Below are positions 21,607-42,102 of a stretch of 55,054 nt of DNA, in pieces. How positions within the stretch are numbered: position 1 is the stretch's first letter; each line of letters starts with the position of its first letter. Position numbers and translations under genes: made by a program. The notes beneath the pieces were generated by a model. That model saw nothing but the letters and a program-made list of their open reading frames with translations. It was not told where the DNA came from and searched no databases. The DNA is from Lacinutrix sp. (GTDB lineage Bacteria > Bacteroidota > Bacteroidia > Flavobacteriales > Flavobacteriaceae): contig NZ_JALZVX010000004.1 in assembly GCF_023299985.1 (NCBI RefSeq), positions 1 to 55,054 on the forward strand. Reading direction: 5' to 3'.

Positions 21607-22503
21607 TTATTGTCTTGGATGAAAGTTTTGTATTACATTTTTTAAGTGGCTTTTATCTACATGCATGTAGATTTCTGTAGTTGTAATACTTTCATGCCCA
21701 AGCATAAGTTGTATGGCTCTTAAGTCTGCACCATTTTCCAAGAGGTGTGTTGCAAAGGAGTGTCTAAATGTGTGTGGAGAAATGGTTTTTTCTAAATTTA
21801 TTTTAACTGCCAATTGTTTTATAATTGTAAAAATCATGGCTCTAGTTAATTGTTTTCCTCGTCGATTTAAAAACAGTGTATCTTTAAACTCGTTTGGAAT
21901 AGTTTGGTGATTTCTCACTTCTTTTCTGTAGATTTCAATGTATTTTTTTGTAGCATCAATTATAGGTACAAAACGTTGTTTATCTCCTTTTCCAGTTACT
22001 TTAATAAATCCTTCGTCGAAAAATAAGTCTGAAATTTTAAGATGCGTTAATTCACTAACACGTAAACCACAGCCATAAAGTAACTCTAAAATAGCACGAT
22101 TACGTTCACCTTGAGGTTTGCTTAAATCTATAGCGTTAATAAGTTGGTTTATTTCATTTTCACTAAGAGTATCTGGGAGTTTTCTACCAATTTTAGGAGA
22201 ATTGATTGTGTCGAGTGGGTTTGTTTTACGATAATCTTCAAAAACTAAGTAATTAAAAAAACCTTTTAATCCAGAAATTAATCTTGATTGCGAGCGAGCG
22301 TTAACTGTTTTTGCAATAGTATAAATAAATTGCTGAATGGTTTCTTTAGTTATTGTAATAGGAGAGGAGGTGATGCTATTTGCTTCTAGATAATTCATTA
22401 GTTTTTTAACATCAAAACTGTAGTTACTTATCGAATTGTTAGATAAGCCTCTCTCAATTTTAAGATAAAGTTGATAATCTTTTAAAGCGTTTTGCCATTT
22501 CAT
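21607..22503 (-). CDS. xerD: Site-specific tyrosine recombinase XerD
   Basis: 298 aa; LYGCGLRVSEL, GKGDKQR, SPHTFRHSFATHLL, LGHESITTTEIY. Confidence 0.9.
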   Translation of the reverse strand: MKWQNALKDYQLYLKIERGLSNNSISNYSFDVKKLMNYLEANSITSSPITITKETIQQFIYTIAKTVNARSQSRLISGLKGFFNYLVFEDYRKTNPLDTINSPKIGRKLPDTLSENEINQLINAIDLSKPQGERNRAILELLYGCGLRVSELTHLKISDLFFDEGFIKVTGKGDKQRFVPIIDATKKYIEIYRKEVRNHQTIPNEFKDTLFLNRRGKQLTRAMIFTIIKQLAVKINLEKTISPHTFRHSFATHLLENGADLRAIQLMLGHESITTTEIYMHVDKSHLKNVIQNFHPRQ

Positions 22504-37053: not shown

Positions 37054-38391
37054 ATGAAAGCAATTGTATTTTGTTTATTCGGTTTACTATCATTAGGTCT
37101 TTTTGCTCAAGAGATTGAGGAGGAGTTTCTTCCTATAGAAGTTGAAGGTAAAGAAGCTTACATGTCTACTAAAACAGGAGAGTTTACTTTTAGAGCTCAT
37201 AGTAAGACAGATGCAACCCAATTAAAAACGACACCAAGTGGTGTGGTTTATACAAATATTACAACGCATACCATTAAAAAAGGAGAGACTTTGTTTACTG
37301 TTGCTAAAAAAAACAACGTTTCTATAGACGAGATTAAAAGGTATAATAAAGTTGCGAGTTCAAATTTAAAAATAGGAACACCTATTAAAATTGTTAAAAA
37401 AGAATTAGTAAAATCTAGCAGCCCAGTTATTAGTTATGCTGGAGAAGAACGTATAATAGCTTCACTACGTCCTGGAGAATCTCCTGGTCAATTTGCTGCT
37501 CCACCTTCTGTGGCAGAGGTAGAAAATAAAGTTATTGAAACTAAAAAAACAGAAGAGAAACCTTCTGCTACTGTTTATAAAGCTAAAACTAGTGTGAAGA
37601 ATCCTATTTTTGGATTAACTAGTGCAAAAGCAGACAATACTCAGGATAATGATGATAGTATAAATGACCTTTCTAAAGCAATTAGTCAAGAAATTAAAGC
37701 GGCTAAAACAGATAAAACTGTAAAAGCGGTTAAAACTGAAGTTATAAAAGAAAAAATTCGTGTAGTTGAAGCTCCTAAAACAAAAGTAAAAGTCGAGTCT
37801 AAAAAAGAAAAATTAGCACGACTTAAAGCAGAAATGCAAGCTTTGGAAGCAGAGTTAGACGAAGAAACACCTTCAAAAAAAGTAATAAAACAAGAAGTAG
37901 TAAAACAAGAGGTTAGAAAAGAAATTAAAGAAGAAGTTAAAAAAGTAAATACAGCTGTTGCACAAACAAAAAAAGAAGACGCTAACGCACTAGAGCTTAT
38001 AAAAAAATCTAATCCAGAGGCTACAATTGAAGAAACTGCTAATGGTAGAAAAGTTATGGTTTTTGAAAACAAGCCAAAAGCTGAAGAGTCTACAGCAGCA
38101 AAGGCTAAGAAAGCTATAGCTTCGGTTAGAAAAACTAAAGAAGATGTTGCCACTTCAAAAGTAGAAGCATTAAAAAAAGAAAAGAAAGTAGCAGCCGAGA
38201 ACAATTCTAAAGAAAACACTGAAGAAACTAAAACAGAGGCTAATAATTTCTATACCGTAGAAAAAGGAAACTCTTTATGGTCTATTGCTAAAAAGCATAA
38301 TATGACTGTAGATGCTATAAAAAAATTAAACAATTTAAAAAACAATAATCTTAGTGTTGGTCAGAAATTAAAAGTGACGTCTAAAAAATAA
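37054..38391 (+). CDS. Secreted protein with two LysM domains and a long K/E/A-rich linker
   Basis: HTIKKGETLFTVAK and YTVEKGNSLWSIAKKH LysM motifs; signal peptide. Confidence 0.85.
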   Translation: MKAIVFCLFGLLSLGLFAQEIEEEFLPIEVEGKEAYMSTKTGEFTFRAHSKTDATQLKTTPSGVVYTNITTHTIKKGETLFTVAKKNNVSIDEIKRYNKVASSNLKIGTPIKIVKKELVKSSSPVISYAGEERIIASLRPGESPGQFAAPPSVAEVENKVIETKKTEEKPSATVYKAKTSVKNPIFGLTSAKADNTQDNDDSINDLSKAISQEIKAAKTDKTVKAVKTEVIKEKIRVVEAPKTKVKVESKKEKLARLKAEMQALEAELDEETPSKKVIKQEVVKQEVRKEIKEEVKKVNTAVAQTKKEDANALELIKKSNPEATIEETANGRKVMVFENKPKAEESTAAKAKKAIASVRKTKEDVATSKVEALKKEKKVAAENNSKENTEETKTEANNFYTVEKGNSLWSIAKKHNMTVDAIKKLNNLKNNNLSVGQKLKVTSKK

Positions 38392-38460
38392 TCAAAAATA
38401 AATTTTTGTTTTACCATAATTAACTGAGTGTAAACAAAACATAAAGAAACCCTATTTTAT

Positions 38461-38958
38461 ATGAAAAAAGTAATTTTGGCATTAGTATGCCTAGTAAGTT
38501 TTAGTGTATTTTCTCAAGAAAACATAGTAGATGTTATTATGGATGGCAAGCCTGCGAAATTGAATACTACAACAGGAGTTTTTACCTTTACAAAAGGTAC
38601 ACCAAGTAGTTATGCTACAAATAATAGCACTACAGATTCTAAACCTTTAAATGGAGACATACATATAGTTGGCAAAGGTGAAACTTTGTATTCTATTTCT
38701 AAAAAATATCAATTAAGTATAGCGCAAATTAAGAGTTTAAATAATCTTGTAACTAATGTGCTTAACGTAAATCAAGAATTAAAAATAGGTTATAATACTT
38801 CAGCTAAAATTAGTGAATTTTCTGTTTATACAGTAAAAAAAGGAGATTCATTATACAGTATTGCTAGGACAGCAAATATTACGGTTAATGCCTTAAAACA
38901 ACTAAATAATATAGAAAATAGTATTATTAGCATAGGTCAAGAGCTTAAATTAAAATAA
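38461..38958 (+). CDS. Secreted protein with two LysM domains
   Basis: HIVGKGETLYSISKKY and YTVKKGDSLYSIAR. Confidence 0.88.
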   Translation: MKKVILALVCLVSFSVFSQENIVDVIMDGKPAKLNTTTGVFTFTKGTPSSYATNNSTTDSKPLNGDIHIVGKGETLYSISKKYQLSIAQIKSLNNLVTNVLNVNQELKIGYNTSAKISEFSVYTVKKGDSLYSIARTANITVNALKQLNNIENSIISIGQELKLK

Positions 38959-39008: not shown

Positions 39009-40028
39009 ATGCTTAAAAAATTTATCCCTTTTTATTTTATACTTTTTAACACTTTTTGCTTCGCGCAATTGGGAGGAGAATCTACTTATCAGTTTTTAAA
39101 TTTAGTATCCTCGCCAAGACAAGCAGCTTTAGGTGGTAAAGTTTTAACAAATATAGATTGGGACGTTACACAAGGTATTTATAATCCATCTGCAATTAAT
39201 GTAGAAATGGACAACCAATTTGCATTAAATTACACTAATTATTTAGGCGGTATTAAGTTTGGTACTGCAGCTTATGCTTATACTGTAGATAGGCGTGTAC
39301 AAACATACCATGCAGGTATTACCTTTATTAATTATGGTGATTTTGCTGGTTTTGATGAAGATGGAAATGAAACCGGTGATTTTTCAGGTTCTGAAATTGC
39401 ATTATCCTTTGGTTATGCAGCGCAAGTTGGTTTTTCAGATTTTTACGTTGGAGCAAACTTAAAACTTATTAACTCTAGTTTAGAGCAATTTAATTCTTTT
39501 GGTATTGCTACAGATTTAGCATTAATGTACATAGACGAGCGTCTAGAGTTTCAAGGTACTCTAGTGGTTAGAAATTTAGGTACACAAATCACCACGTATG
39601 CTGGAGTACAAGAGTCTTTGCCTTTAGAAATAGATATAGGTTTATCTCAAACGCTAGAAAATATACCATTGAGATGGCACTTAACCTTCGAGAATTTACA
39701 ACAATGGCCAATTGGAGAACCTAATCCTGCTAGAGCAGCTACAGATTTAGAAGGCAATCAAGAACAAGAGAATGTAGGTTTCTTAGCGCAAGTAGTTAGA
39801 CATACAATATTAGGCGCAGAGCTATTTCCAAATAAAGGTTTTAATATACGTTTAGGTTATAATTTTAGACGTGCCGAAGAGTTACGTATTGTAGACCAAA
39901 GAAACTTCTCAGGTATTTCTGCAGGTTTTTCTATAAAGCTTAATAAAATGCGTATTAGTTATACACATGCAAAATATACTGCTGCTTCAAATTCTAACTT
40001 CTTAGGATTGCAGATTGATTTGAGATAG
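39009..40028 (+). CDS. porQ: Type IX secretion system protein PorQ
   Basis: YQFLNLVSSPRQAALGG, NPSAI, RLGYNFRRAEEL; lon-porQ-cmk gene order. Confidence 0.88.
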   Translation: MLKKFIPFYFILFNTFCFAQLGGESTYQFLNLVSSPRQAALGGKVLTNIDWDVTQGIYNPSAINVEMDNQFALNYTNYLGGIKFGTAAYAYTVDRRVQTYHAGITFINYGDFAGFDEDGNETGDFSGSEIALSFGYAAQVGFSDFYVGANLKLINSSLEQFNSFGIATDLALMYIDERLEFQGTLVVRNLGTQITTYAGVQESLPLEIDIGLSQTLENIPLRWHLTFENLQQWPIGEPNPARAATDLEGNQEQENVGFLAQVVRHTILGAELFPNKGFNIRLGYNFRRAEELRIVDQRNFSGISAGFSIKLNKMRISYTHAKYTAASNSNFLGLQIDLR

Positions 40029-40039
40029 TTTTACATTTG
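40008..40039 (+). promoter_or_regulatory. Bacteroidota sigma-70 promoter upstream of the att-like site, the cassette and cmk
   Basis: TTG(40008-10)-N21-TACATTTG(40032-39). Confidence 0.6.
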
Positions 40040-40063
40040 ACTTTCTAAAAAAAATAGTCGAAC

Positions 40064-40124
40064 TTCGTTTAACGTCTGATATAAAACATTTAAACGATTT
40101 CATATCAGGTAAAACGTTATAAGC
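40064..40124. repeat. Left attC-like recombination site (hybrid)
   Basis: TTCGTTTAAC (contains RYYYAAC) - inner stem CTGATAT(A)AAA/TTT(C)ATATCAG - G|TTATAAGC. Confidence 0.75.
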
Positions 40125-41362
40125 AATGAAAAACATGAAATTATGAAATATTTAATATTAATTACAATTTATCTTACACTACAAAGCTGTAATTCTGATG
40201 ATCCCAACATAAATAATAATGATAATGGACAAGCATTATCTGCGAACATTGATGTTCTTAATAGTCAATTAACAATATACTATAATGAAATAACACTTGA
40301 TGGATCAAATTCCACAGGTAATATTGATAATTATAAATGGGAAATCATTGATGCTCCTGCTTCATATAATTACTTTCGTCCTAGTGAAAATCAAAATACT
40401 GAATCATACTTGTATCATAATGACCAATTACCGGAAGTACCATTATTATCATTTAAGGCCAGAGAAGTAGGTAATTATACCATTAAACTTACTGTTAATT
40501 CTGGAAACGAACAGTCATCCACCGAGATTAGCTTTTTTGTATCGAATGAAGAACCAAATTATACTTTTTCAAATATACATGACGAATTATTTAATAATTC
40601 TAACGAATGGAATATTTCAAATTATTCAATTGAAGAAGATATAGCAACTCTTCCAGCAGGAACAGCACACGGTTATGATACACTTGAATCTATTGGAGGC
40701 AATTTGTCTTTTAATAATAATATAGAGGTGGATACAGGAACATATCTTTATTGGAAAGCTAAAAAAAACTTACCTAATTTAAATACTGAACCATCAAATT
40801 TCTTGTTCACAATTAAATCTACTAGTGATGAATTTGGATATCAATTAAGTTATACTGATGCGTGGGATTTCGTATCTGATATTAAAATAGTATTTGATGG
40901 GTATTTAATTTCGTTCAAAGGTGACTTAAATAACCAAAAACCTTTACTTTTTTGTTGTTTCGTTGATGATGAATTTTATAGAACTAATCTATCAAATCAG
41001 GATATTCGAATTTATTTTTATCGAAATGTTAACGGAGAATATTCTATTAATGCTATTTGTAACAATCAAAATATTTCAGAAAGAATTCAAATTTCAGAGA
41101 CTGACTTACAAGACTCAATAGAGTTTTATTTCTATAGCACACGTAAACATAATGGAGGAGGGTTAAAAATTACTCCAAAAAACTTAAACATAGTTAAATA
41201 TAATATTTCTGAATTTTAATTCTATAAAATAACAGCTTATAACAAAGTGTAAAAATAATTGCTCATTTTAGGCTCAAACCAAAGGGCTATTACCTTTTGC
41301 ATTTTTGAATTTTACTGGCTTGAAAGCTTATACGCTAAGAGCAACTATTCTTACACCAAACG
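40117..41362 (+). mobile_element. Integron-like single gene cassette (no integrase in the window)
   Basis: Outer arms of the two flanking palindromes are swapped: GTTATAAGC(40116) complements GCTTATAAC(41235); TTCGTTTAAC(40064) complements GTTAAACGAA(41362). Confidence 0.75.
40143..41219 (+). CDS. Cassette-borne lipoprotein with PKD/REJ-like Ig domain
   Basis: Lipobox LQSC followed by NSDD; ITLDGSNS...YKW...GNYTIKLTV PKD signature; Asn-rich. Confidence 0.8.
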   Translation: MKYLILITIYLTLQSCNSDDPNINNNDNGQALSANIDVLNSQLTIYYNEITLDGSNSTGNIDNYKWEIIDAPASYNYFRPSENQNTESYLYHNDQLPEVPLLSFKAREVGNYTIKLTVNSGNEQSSTEISFFVSNEEPNYTFSNIHDELFNNSNEWNISNYSIEEDIATLPAGTAHGYDTLESIGGNLSFNNNIEVDTGTYLYWKAKKNLPNLNTEPSNFLFTIKSTSDEFGYQLSYTDAWDFVSDIKIVFDGYLISFKGDLNNQKPLLFCCFVDDEFYRTNLSNQDIRIYFYRNVNGEYSINAICNNQNISERIQISETDLQDSIEFYFYSTRKHNGGGLKITPKNLNIVKYNISEF

Positions 41363-41371
41363 TTAAACGAA
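41235..41371. repeat. Right attC-like recombination site (hybrid)
   Basis: GCTTATAAC-aaa-GTGTAAAAATAATTGCTC...GAGCAACTATTCTTACAC-caaac-G|TTAAACGAA (GTTRRRY); starts 15 nt after the cassette gene stop. Confidence 0.8.
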
Positions 41372-41406
41372 ACTTTCCAAATAAACCATTATCTAAATAA
41401 AATAAA

Positions 41407-42102
41407 GTGCAAAAAATAACCATAGCCATAGACGGTTTTTCATCCACCGGAAAAAGCACAGTTGCAAAGCAACTAGCCAAACATTTAGGTTACATATATG
41501 TAGATTCTGGAGCCATGTATCGTGCAGTAACACTATTTACTATGCGAAACGGTTTTATTACTAAGGAAGACTTTAATGTAAATGCATTAGTAGAAAAACT
41601 AGGTGAAATAAATATTAGTTTTAAGTTTAATGCAACCTTAGGCTTTGCCGAAGTTTATTTAAACGGTGAAAACATAGAACACGACATTAGAACGTTAGAA
41701 GTTTCAAGTTTTGTAAGTAAAGTAGCAGCTATTCCAGAAGTGCGTTACCAATTGGTAAAGCAACAACAACAAATGGGAAAAGATAAAAGTGTTGTAATGG
41801 ATGGTAGAGATATTGGTACTGTAGTATTCCCTTATGCAGAACTAAAACTATTTATGATAGCGTCTGCAGAAAAAAGAGCAACCAGACGTTTCGACGAGTT
41901 AATAGGTAGAGGAGACGATGTAGAATATGAAGCCGTTTTAAGAAACGTACAAGAACGCGATTATATAGATTCTAATAGAGAAGATTCTCCATTACGTAAA
42001 GCCGATGATGCTATCGAGATAGATAATAGCGACTTATCTTTAACAGAACAATTTGAAAAAGTACTACAGTTAGTAGAGATTACTTTTGAGGATTTGGAGT
42101 AG
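41407..42102 (+). CDS. cmk: Cytidylate kinase
   Basis: IAIDGFSSTGKST, DSGAMYRA, VMDGRDIGTVVFP; GTG start. Confidence 0.96.
   Translation: MQKITIAIDGFSSTGKSTVAKQLAKHLGYIYVDSGAMYRAVTLFTMRNGFITKEDFNVNALVEKLGEINISFKFNATLGFAEVYLNGENIEHDIRTLEVSSFVSKVAAIPEVRYQLVKQQQQMGKDKSVVMDGRDIGTVVFPYAELKLFMIASAEKRATRRFDELIGRGDDVEYEAVLRNVQERDYIDSNREDSPLRKADDAIEIDNSDLSLTEQFEKVLQLVEITFEDLE

What the first reader, a model, noticed from the sequence alone, without database searches (positions are those of the whole stretch)
40064..41371. Integron-like gene cassette with swapped attC-type arms between porQ and cmk, and no integrase nearby
Seen: a lone gene is bracketed by two imperfect palindromes. Left site: TTCGTTTAAC(40064-73)...G|TTATAAGC(40116-24). 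Right site: GCTTATAAC(41235-43)...G|TTAAACGAA(41362-71). Neither site's outer arms match each other beyond the TAAC/GTTA core, but crosswise they are perfect complements (10 bp and 9 bp). Removing 40117-41362 in silico restores a perfect empty hairpin. Circularising that piece restores a perfect cassette site. Established: crossover at G|TT, RYYYAAC...GTTRRRY cores and a site starting just after the stop codon are hallmarks of integron cassettes. Differences from canonical attC: spacers are 3 and 5 nt, no obvious extrahelical base in the 18-bp stem, and the cassette core is TTATAAC/GTTATAA. Inference: a Flavobacteriaceae cassette system distinct from classical integrons, in which a trans-acting recombinase inserts single cassettes into dispersed chromosomal hairpins. 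I cannot tell from the sequence alone whether it has been described.
Basis: partly seen in the sequence, partly recalled or inferred. Interest (0 to 1): 0.9.

Follow-up and report, generated by a model that had tools for sequence, protein, structure and literature searches.

The report
Dispersed single-slot gene-cassette docking sites
The gene between porQ and cmk is a removable 1,246-bp cassette sitting in one of about 24 short hairpin docking sites scattered over this flavobacterial chromosome; the same site occurs empty in a sister sample and holds other genes in relatives, and a distant integron-like recombinase that lacks the integron hallmark domain likely loads these sites.

Summary
Confirmed and extended. 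The crosswise arms are exact. The left site is one of 24 dispersed ~95-bp 'pads' in this genome: a promoter-like motif, a 47-60-nt inverted repeat and a crossover triplet (none in shuffled DNA). A public DNA run holds the predicted empty porQ-cmk allele, lacking exactly 1,246 bp. Four relatives carry other cassettes at the same junction. Pads occur in 12 of 13 congeners, 27 of 150 family genomes and Cellulophaga phages. Natural variants fix the crossover after base 1 of G|TT, with unlike spacers, as in integrons. Another contig carries a 276-aa tyrosine recombinase beside a cassette array. It lacks about 42 residues of the IntI-specific insertion, and the sites lack extrahelical bases. In one relative a 556-bp cassette is identical in array and pad except base 1. 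Best reading: a 'distributed' integron-like system in which one recombinase serves many mostly single-slot sites. Enzyme activity, hairpin use and promoter function are untested. This scan already noted the Bacteroidota array system in at least 21 other genomes; four look-ups found no note on the pads. Ten literature searches found no description. The closest are SALIN/attG and an unexplained cassette-sized integration in Riemerella.

The parts
39009..40028 (+). porQ, T9SS protein; fixed upstream flank
   Evidence: NF033711 432 bits, over cut-off
40037..40067 (+). Promoter-like part of the pad: TTG box, 20 nt, then a -7-like octamer (GAACTTCG here; TAACTTCG in most pads). Function inferred.
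   Evidence: TTG 19-21 nt upstream of the octamer in 100 of 116 pads with an octamer (120 examined); TAACTTCG at the -7 position of one mapped F. psychrophilum sigma-A start (PMC9723704 supplement 3)
40064..40073 (+). Pad left arm (R''-like); pairs with 41362-41371 in the empty state
   Evidence: arm covariation
40076..40108 (.). Pad inner inverted repeat (11-bp stem, 11-nt loop)
   Evidence: 5 of 11 pairs show changes on both sides in 20 natural empty pads
40116..40117 (+). Left crossover G|TT
40117..41362 (+). 1,246-bp gene cassette; absent from the empty allele
   Evidence: joint in run X3; head and tail complementary
40143..41219 (+). 358-aa cargo ORF: probable lipoprotein (LQSC lipobox-like motif read by eye) with a PKD-like domain under the Pfam cut-off; function unknown
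   Evidence: PF22352 E 3.5e-5, 24.2 bits against cut-off 27; 2 homologs, 66% and 37%; single-sequence fold uninformative, pLDDT 34
41235..41362 (+). Cassette recombination site (attC-like, 124 nt from AAC to GTT): R'' GCTTATAAC, 3-nt spacer, long stem with no bulged base in the L box, 5-nt spacer, G
41363..41371 (+). Pad right arm, displaced by the insertion
   Evidence: same junction in G001, G002, G006, G007 and a remnant in G008
41407..42102 (+). cmk; fixed downstream flank, same strand as pad and cassette
   Evidence: PF02224

Best explanation
The porQ-cmk site is one of about 24 dispersed chromosomal docking sites ('pads') that take up and release gene cassettes at a fixed point after the first base of G|TT, and a distant integron-like tyrosine recombinase lacking the IntI insertion likely does this in trans, probably by one strand exchange on folded DNA. 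Shown by sequence: an empty pad is a promoter-like motif, a short perfect inverted repeat and the crossover triplet. Insertion splits its outer arms around the cassette, and excision restores them. The same cassettes occur in the integrase-adjacent array and in pads. Inferred: (1) the C6-type recombinase is the catalyst; (2) the cassette site, and probably the empty pad, is used as a bottom-strand hairpin with a single exchange that replication resolves, because the partner spacers are not alike; (3) a filled pad has mismatched outer arms and so is a poor target, which would explain why most pads hold one cassette; (4) the upstream motif is a sigma-A promoter that expresses the cassette, and cmk at this locus. 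How pads first arise at new loci is not resolved. Local duplication and spread on phages are both seen as possibilities.
For: Empty allele with an exact 1,246-bp skip in run X3; in X2 the cmk side is joined to a different attC-like end. Different cassettes at the same junction in G001, G002, G006, G007. Of 120 pad hits in 7 genomes of the genus: 15 empty, 56 filled with the far arm found, 24 unresolved, 25 not parsed. 51 of the 56 filled pads hold one detectable cassette site, 1 holds two, 4 show none. Crossover: of 54 filled pads with a TT core, base 1 left/right is A/G 34, G/G 17, A/A 3, G/A 0; the 7 nt up to base 1 never match fully (1-6 of 7). Pads with an arm ending ATC are AAT when empty (2 of 2) and give xTT left and GAT right when filled (8 of 8). 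In G006 a 556-bp cassette is identical in the integrase array and in a pad except base 1. A 69% homolog of the window's cargo ends in a pad-type arm at another locus. 9 of 9 integrase loci fetched from congeners have 1-24 same-family sites on one side. The integrase has 58 residues from KDR to HxxRH against 100 in an IntI. The bottom strand folds better in 37 of 39 cassette sites and 13 of 15 empty pads, as reported for attC (PMC5027507, passages). Empty pads show changes on both sides at 10 of 21 pairs, with 0 of 500 shuffles as high.
Against: No enzyme test, no circle junction and no RNA data. The recombinase lacks the domain that IntI uses to block the second exchange (PMC4792948, passages), so a single exchange needs another explanation. 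Covariation shows an inverted repeat, not a single-stranded hairpin. 38 of 116 pads, including this one, have GAACTTCG instead of a TA-start -7 box, and GAnnTTCG is not enriched upstream of genes. The X3 joint lies in an 8-bp direct repeat, so on its own it could be a microhomology deletion; all four runs come from one study and one may be the source sample. Pad and integrase co-occurrence is weak: 24 of 27 pad-bearing family genomes have an integrase hit at E<=1e-45, against 110 of 150 overall. The far arm was found by requiring a match to the left arm, so arm complementarity is partly by construction, and unresolved pads may hide longer arrays (C106 and C73 continue into further cassettes).
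Confidence: 0.78

Rival explanations
1. The same or another tyrosine recombinase (including XerC/D) recombines pad and cassette as double-stranded sites with two exchanges that tolerate mismatch, as conjugative-transposon integrases do (recalled). The inverted repeats are then protein-binding arms, not hairpins.
For: The enzyme lacks I2 and scores best against XerA-like models. Inverted-repeat covariation fits double-stranded binding too. The integrase-proximal attI-like sites are not hairpins, yet share TATAT..N..GTT with the pad's right half.
Against: A heteroduplex overlap should leave both junction types after segregation, but base 1 is A/G 34 times and G/A never. The crossover maps to one phosphodiester. 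The cassette sites have 120-190-nt hairpins with a bottom-strand folding bias. The integrase family, not XerC/D, lies next to the arrays.
Confidence: 0.12
2. Pads are not dedicated targets but leftovers: decayed arrays (CALIN-like) or one-off insertions at attG-like secondary sites (SALIN-like).
For: Some pads are decayed (G008 porQ-cmk, G010 cysK locus). SALINs and CALINs are common in bacteria (10.1101/2022.09.11.507474, passages).
Against: Both pad arms are chromosomal, conserved and covary across the insert; 14 of 18 non-consensus arms match their own far arm 9 of 9. Orthologous pads are empty in one species and filled with different cassettes in others. The pad profile finds no pad in 18 integrase-flanking loci or 9 array contigs. 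attG sites are described as differing in sequence and structure from att sites.
Confidence: 0.05
3. A transposase (an HUH enzyme or the IS3 element found beside the sites) moves the cassettes or the pads.
For: An IS3-family element starts 14 nt after the start of the core triplet at 12 of 12 left ends examined.
Against: The IS lies outside the cassettes and has its own ends. The cassette junctions have no target duplication beyond the shared core. The arrays sit beside the tyrosine recombinase. HUH enzymes were not searched for.
Confidence: 0.05

Closest known systems
Integrons (IntI, attI, attC cassettes; sedentary chromosomal type)
   Same: Promoterless single-gene cassettes with complementary head and tail; AAC...GTT cores; crossover after base 1 of G|TT; a tyrosine recombinase gene beside a same-strand array with a non-hairpin attI-like first site; toxin-antitoxin cassettes (ParDE); bottom-strand folding bias.
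   Different: The recombinase lacks the IntI insertion and scores 164 against the TIGR02249 cut-off of 265. The sites have 3/5-6-nt spacers, no extrahelical base in the L box, and lengths near 124 or 187 nt. Cassettes also go into dozens of dispersed, reusable pads far from the integrase.
SALINs and attG insertions (bioRxiv 10.1101/2022.09.11.507474; passages seen)
   Same: Single cassettes away from any integrase, inserted in trans, expressed when next to a resident promoter.
   Different: attG sites are many unrelated double-stranded sequences. Pads are a conserved family with two covarying arms and a built-in promoter-like motif, kept at orthologous loci across species and reused.
Homology-independent integration of resistance genes in Riemerella anatipestifer (PMC13148043; section 11 and passages seen, Fig. 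S6 not seen)
   Same: Reported unit is 27 bp of leader, the gene and 140 bp of attC-like trailer, entering a fixed chromosomal site by an unexplained mechanism in a Flavobacteriales species. The window's cassette has 27 bp from the core G to ATG and a 143-bp trailer.
   Different: No recombinase or target-site family was identified there. I did not compare the Riemerella sequences, so identity with this system is only a lead.
Bacteroidota integron-like arrays noted earlier by this scan (unpublished AI notes)
   Same: Same site family, and the same I2-less recombinase beside arrays; phage cassettes with antisense genes.
   Different: Those notes, as listed, describe arrays and remnants; none of my four pad look-ups returned a note on dispersed pads.
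IS elements that target attC sites (IS1111-attC group; recalled, papers seen only as a search listing)
   Same: An IS inserting at a fixed position relative to cassette recombination sites.
   Different: Here the element is IS3 family (NF033516 over cut-off) and inserts 14 nt after the start of the core triplet.

Membership tests
Integron (canonical) | Tyrosine recombinase with intact catalytic residues next to a cassette array | tested here: met
   PF00589 and PF13495 over cut-off; R, K, HxxRH, H, Y present; arrays or sites beside 9 of 9 fetched loci and on contig C6
Integron (canonical) | IntI-specific insertion with the I2 helix | tested here: not met
   58 vs 100 residues from KDR to HxxRH, the same 58 in all 25 family homologs where it could be measured; split match to VchIntIA 2A3V; TIGR02249 164 against cut-off 265
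Integron (canonical) | Crossover between A and C of the bottom-strand AAC (G|TT) | tested here: met
   base-1 and base-2 variants
Integron (canonical) | attC with extrahelical bases near L'' and 5-6-nt spacers on both arms | tested here: not met
   First 9 L-box positions pair without a gap (A-C counted as bottom-strand wobble) 9/9 in 28 and 8/9 in 11 of 39 sites; spacer after L' 6, 5 or 4 nt with the R''-side spacer set to 3
Integron (canonical) | Cassette head and tail complementary | tested here: met
   13 of 16 consecutive array pairs match 6-7 of 7, against 0.8% of mismatched pairs
Integron (canonical) | Recombination of the folded bottom strand with replicative resolution | not testable with these tools
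   Only indirect: folding bias and one-sided junctions
Integron (canonical) | Detected by IntegronFinder models | not testable with these tools
   IntegronFinder is not available; Rfam gave nothing at a gathering score
SALIN / attG insertion | Single cassette with no integrase nearby | tested here: met
SALIN / attG insertion | Target is an unstructured genomic site, not another att site | tested here: not met
   Target is a conserved inverted-repeat family
Bacteroidota sigma-A promoter | TTG, 19-21 nt, TAnnTTTG-type box, with a mapped start | tested here: inconclusive
   Spacing met in 100 of 116; box is TAACTTCG in 61 and GAACTTCG in 38; no RNA holder listed

The most novel reading that the evidence does not exclude
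Flavobacteria run a distributed integron. One recombinase without the I2 domain exchanges cassettes between its storage array and dozens of single-slot, promoter-bearing expression sites spread over the chromosome and shared with phages. This would be a second, independent solution to hairpin-DNA recombination, and the route by which resistance genes enter Flavobacteriales chromosomes without homology.
Probability: 0.55. Interest if true: 0.9.

Novelty: new variant of a known kind. Interest (0 to 1): 0.8.

Why it matters
Integrons are reported as rare in Bacteroidetes (PMC9024848, passages), and the I2 domain is held to be the innovation that allows single-strand recombination (PMC7790495, PMC4792948, passages). 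An I2-less enzyme whose products map to the same single crossover makes that claim directly testable. The pad layout also avoids the integron's position problem: many cassettes could each sit behind their own promoter at once. It offers a concrete candidate for the unexplained homology-independent uptake of cassette-sized resistance genes in Riemerella. A ~60-nt reusable site that needs no spacer homology could serve as a genetic tool in a phylum with few.

Tried and rejected
Rfam on the window and 9 loci gave only sub-threshold chance hits. The sigma-70 promoter scan was at background (14 vs 10.2 +/- 3.9). An ECF (SM6-type) reading of the motif was dropped because the AAC-to-CGT spacing differs from two mapped examples. 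No RNA holder was listed, so expression is open. Laying contigs on the C9 tandem gave two weak joints with unknown sequence between; not used. The first site model over-fitted and lost the window's site, and a strict regex found few sites near integrases; both were replaced. A strict empty-pad pattern found 0 of 121 order-level genomes, G000 included, so it says nothing on absence. The cargo fold was uninformative. Cassette-site DNA found no plasmid match. One G151 pad was miscalled empty and one G079 pad left unparsed; both were corrected. Pad origin: no target duplication or mobile end was found; left conservation starts abruptly at the TTG box. Within-genome nearest neighbours are strong only in some genomes (G151 14/14, G089 7/9, G133 6/7, G000 14/20, against G002 4/17, G013 6/21). 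The idea that pads serve downstream housekeeping genes in general was dropped: the downstream gene is same-strand in 29 and opposite in 35 of 64.

Full report
Observation. The four arms are at the stated coordinates and are exact crosswise complements. A 358-aa ORF (40143-41219) lies between porQ and cmk. The only tyrosine recombinase in the window is a XerD-like gene at 21607-22503. Rfam knows neither site.

Two site families. The left site is a repeat. An iterated profile finds 25 hits in this 78%-complete genome (24 pads and one pad-like mini-site) and none in shuffled DNA. Each pad has a TTG box, about 20 nt, an AACTTCG-type octamer, an outer arm ending AAC, an 11-bp inverted repeat and then G|TT or A|TT. 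The right site belongs to a second family of 120-190-nt hairpins that end cassettes: 36 in the genome, 0 in shuffled DNA.

The pad is a reusable slot. In run X3 a 3,456-bp contig (depth 13.5) joins 40111 to 41358 and so lacks exactly the 1,246-bp cassette. In X2 the cmk side is joined to a different attC-like end. The four runs are DNA contigs from one study, so this shows presence, not frequency. Among 13 congeners searched, I read the porQ-cmk interval in 11 whole and 1 in two pieces. G001, G002, G006 and G007 have the pad with four different cassettes and the same right junction, G008 has a remnant, and the others have no pad there. Across 120 pad hits in 7 genomes of the genus, 15 were empty, 56 filled with the far arm found, 24 unresolved and 25 unparsed; the loci were the higher-scoring hits I fetched, not all. 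Of the 56 filled pads, 51 hold one detectable cassette site. Orthologous pads are empty in one species and filled in others. The covariance model finds 2-47 pads in 12 of 13 congeners and pads in 27 of 150 family genomes. In 44 hits from 9 other genera the layout is the same: 19 called filled, 7 empty, 13 unresolved, 5 unparsed, with two calls corrected later. Twenty natural empty pads show changes on both sides at 10 of 21 pairs; no shuffle or slid control comes close.

Crossover. Base 1 of the triplet stays with upstream DNA: left/right is A/G in 34, G/G in 17, A/A in 3 and G/A in 0 of 54 filled pads. Base 2 goes with downstream DNA: pads whose arm ends ATC read AAT when empty and GAT at the right junction when filled (2 of 2 and 8 of 8). 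So the exchange lies between base 1 and base 2, the integron position (PMC5027507, passages). The 7 nt before it never match fully between partners. This fits one strand exchange resolved by replication and argues against a homology-checked second exchange (inference).

The enzyme. Contig C6 carries a 276-aa tyrosine recombinase transcribed away from an array of at least four cassette sites, with a non-hairpin first site bearing two direct repeats. It has the catalytic residues and the IntI-like N-terminal domain but lacks about 42 residues of the IntI insertion. That insertion contains the I2 helix said to be the basis of hairpin recombination (PMC7790495 and PMC4792948, passages). Homologs occur in 110 of 150 family genomes and 10 of 13 congeners. 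All 9 loci I fetched have same-family sites on one side. The strongest link to pads is in G006: a 556-bp cassette is identical in the array and in a pad on another contig except base 1, G against A. The cassette sites have no bulged base in the L box, matching the loss of I2, yet fold better on the bottom strand in 37 of 39 cases.

Promoter. The TTG-to-octamer spacing is 19-21 nt in 100 of 116 pads, the same as the genome's background peak. TAnnTTCG is enriched upstream of genes, but GAnnTTCG, the type in this window, is not. One mapped sigma-A start in F. psychrophilum has TAACTTCG at -7 (PMC9723704: passages, and rows of supplement 3; the large docx supplement could not be read). At one locus a padless relative has the same motif, so pads may be built on native promoters. 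Promoter function is untested.

Spread. Tandem pads with duplicated flanks occur (contig C9). The pad's inner repeat and arms also occur in Cellulophaga phages phi17:1 and phi18:1, where one site holds different cassettes with antisense genes, and apparently empty in phi19:3; the upstream motif is absent there. The origin of new pads stays open.

Cargo. The ORF has a lipoprotein-like start and a weak PKD-like match, and only two homologs. One relative, 69% identical over the matched part, ends in a pad-type arm at another locus.

Prior description. Ten full-text searches found no paper on this system; the library lacks most subscription journals. Surveys report almost no complete integrons in Bacteroidetes (PMC9024848, passages; also PMC8618304, PMC2426708 and PMC8138268, passages). 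SALIN/attG insertion is the nearest described route (10.1101/2022.09.11.507474, passages). PMC13148043 (section 11 and passages) reports a cassette-sized, homology-independent integration in Riemerella with an attC-like trailer and no known mechanism; its supplementary figure was not seen and its sequences were not compared. PMC8876359 and PMC13616975 (passages) added nothing. This scan had noted the array system in at least 21 other genomes but returned nothing for the pads.

Verdict. It works like an integron cassette system but is not a canonical integron: two defining features (I2, extrahelical bases) were tested and not met. New variant of a known kind; the dispersed reusable slot is the new element. 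Confidence in the mechanism 0.78; interest 0.8.

Noticed in passing
L097-L108 (G000, G002, G006); also L186, L195: A 1.3-kb IS3-family element begins exactly 14 nt after the start of the G|TT (once A|TT) triplet at 12 of 12 left ends examined, after both pads and array sites: an IS3 that targets cassette recombination sites.
   Followed up: partly
L002:1-3500 (G000 contig C9): Four tandem pads about 230 bp apart, each unit carrying the 3' end of a neighbouring gene; one is empty, the others hold a ParDE pair and two unknown genes. Each unit has the form of a gene-less cassette.
   Followed up: partly
L015:3771-3897 (G000 contig C167): A gene-less mini-cassette of about 125 bp, with a strong internal hairpin and a short pad-like site, sits between cassette and pad right arm, upstream of a trmD-like gene (gene name recalled).
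   Followed up: no
L273:1393-2750, L275:2071-2545, L276:285-340: Cellulophaga phages phi17:1 and phi18:1 carry pad-like sites with different cassettes whose genes are antisense to the site; phi19:3 has an apparently empty one.
   Followed up: partly
L274:2500-2570 (Pontimicrobium record NZ_CP157200.1): A perfect empty pad on a 7-kb record filed as a plasmid; its neighbours look chromosomal.
   Followed up: no
L183-L200: Two integrase types in the genus: the ~277-aa form has its array upstream and divergent; the ~380-aa form, with an N-terminal extension, has it downstream on the same strand.
   Followed up: partly
window 40029-41406 and L047-L064: The porQ-cmk interval is a hot spot even without a pad: padless relatives carry unrelated accessory genes there, and three other genera have porQ and cmk almost adjacent.
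   Followed up: no
window 40040-40059: Between the TTG box and the octamer many pads have a short inverted repeat (GACT...AGTC) around an A- or T-tract; possible regulator site, untested.
   Followed up: no
L066:1551-1600, L116, L137: Several empty pads are followed or preceded by terminator-like hairpins; at the htpG-like locus of G013 terminator and promoter-like motif are duplicated on both sides of the pad.
   Followed up: no
window 37054-38958: Two adjacent genes with repeated LysM-like motifs (read by eye, not scanned) upstream of porQ.
   Followed up: no
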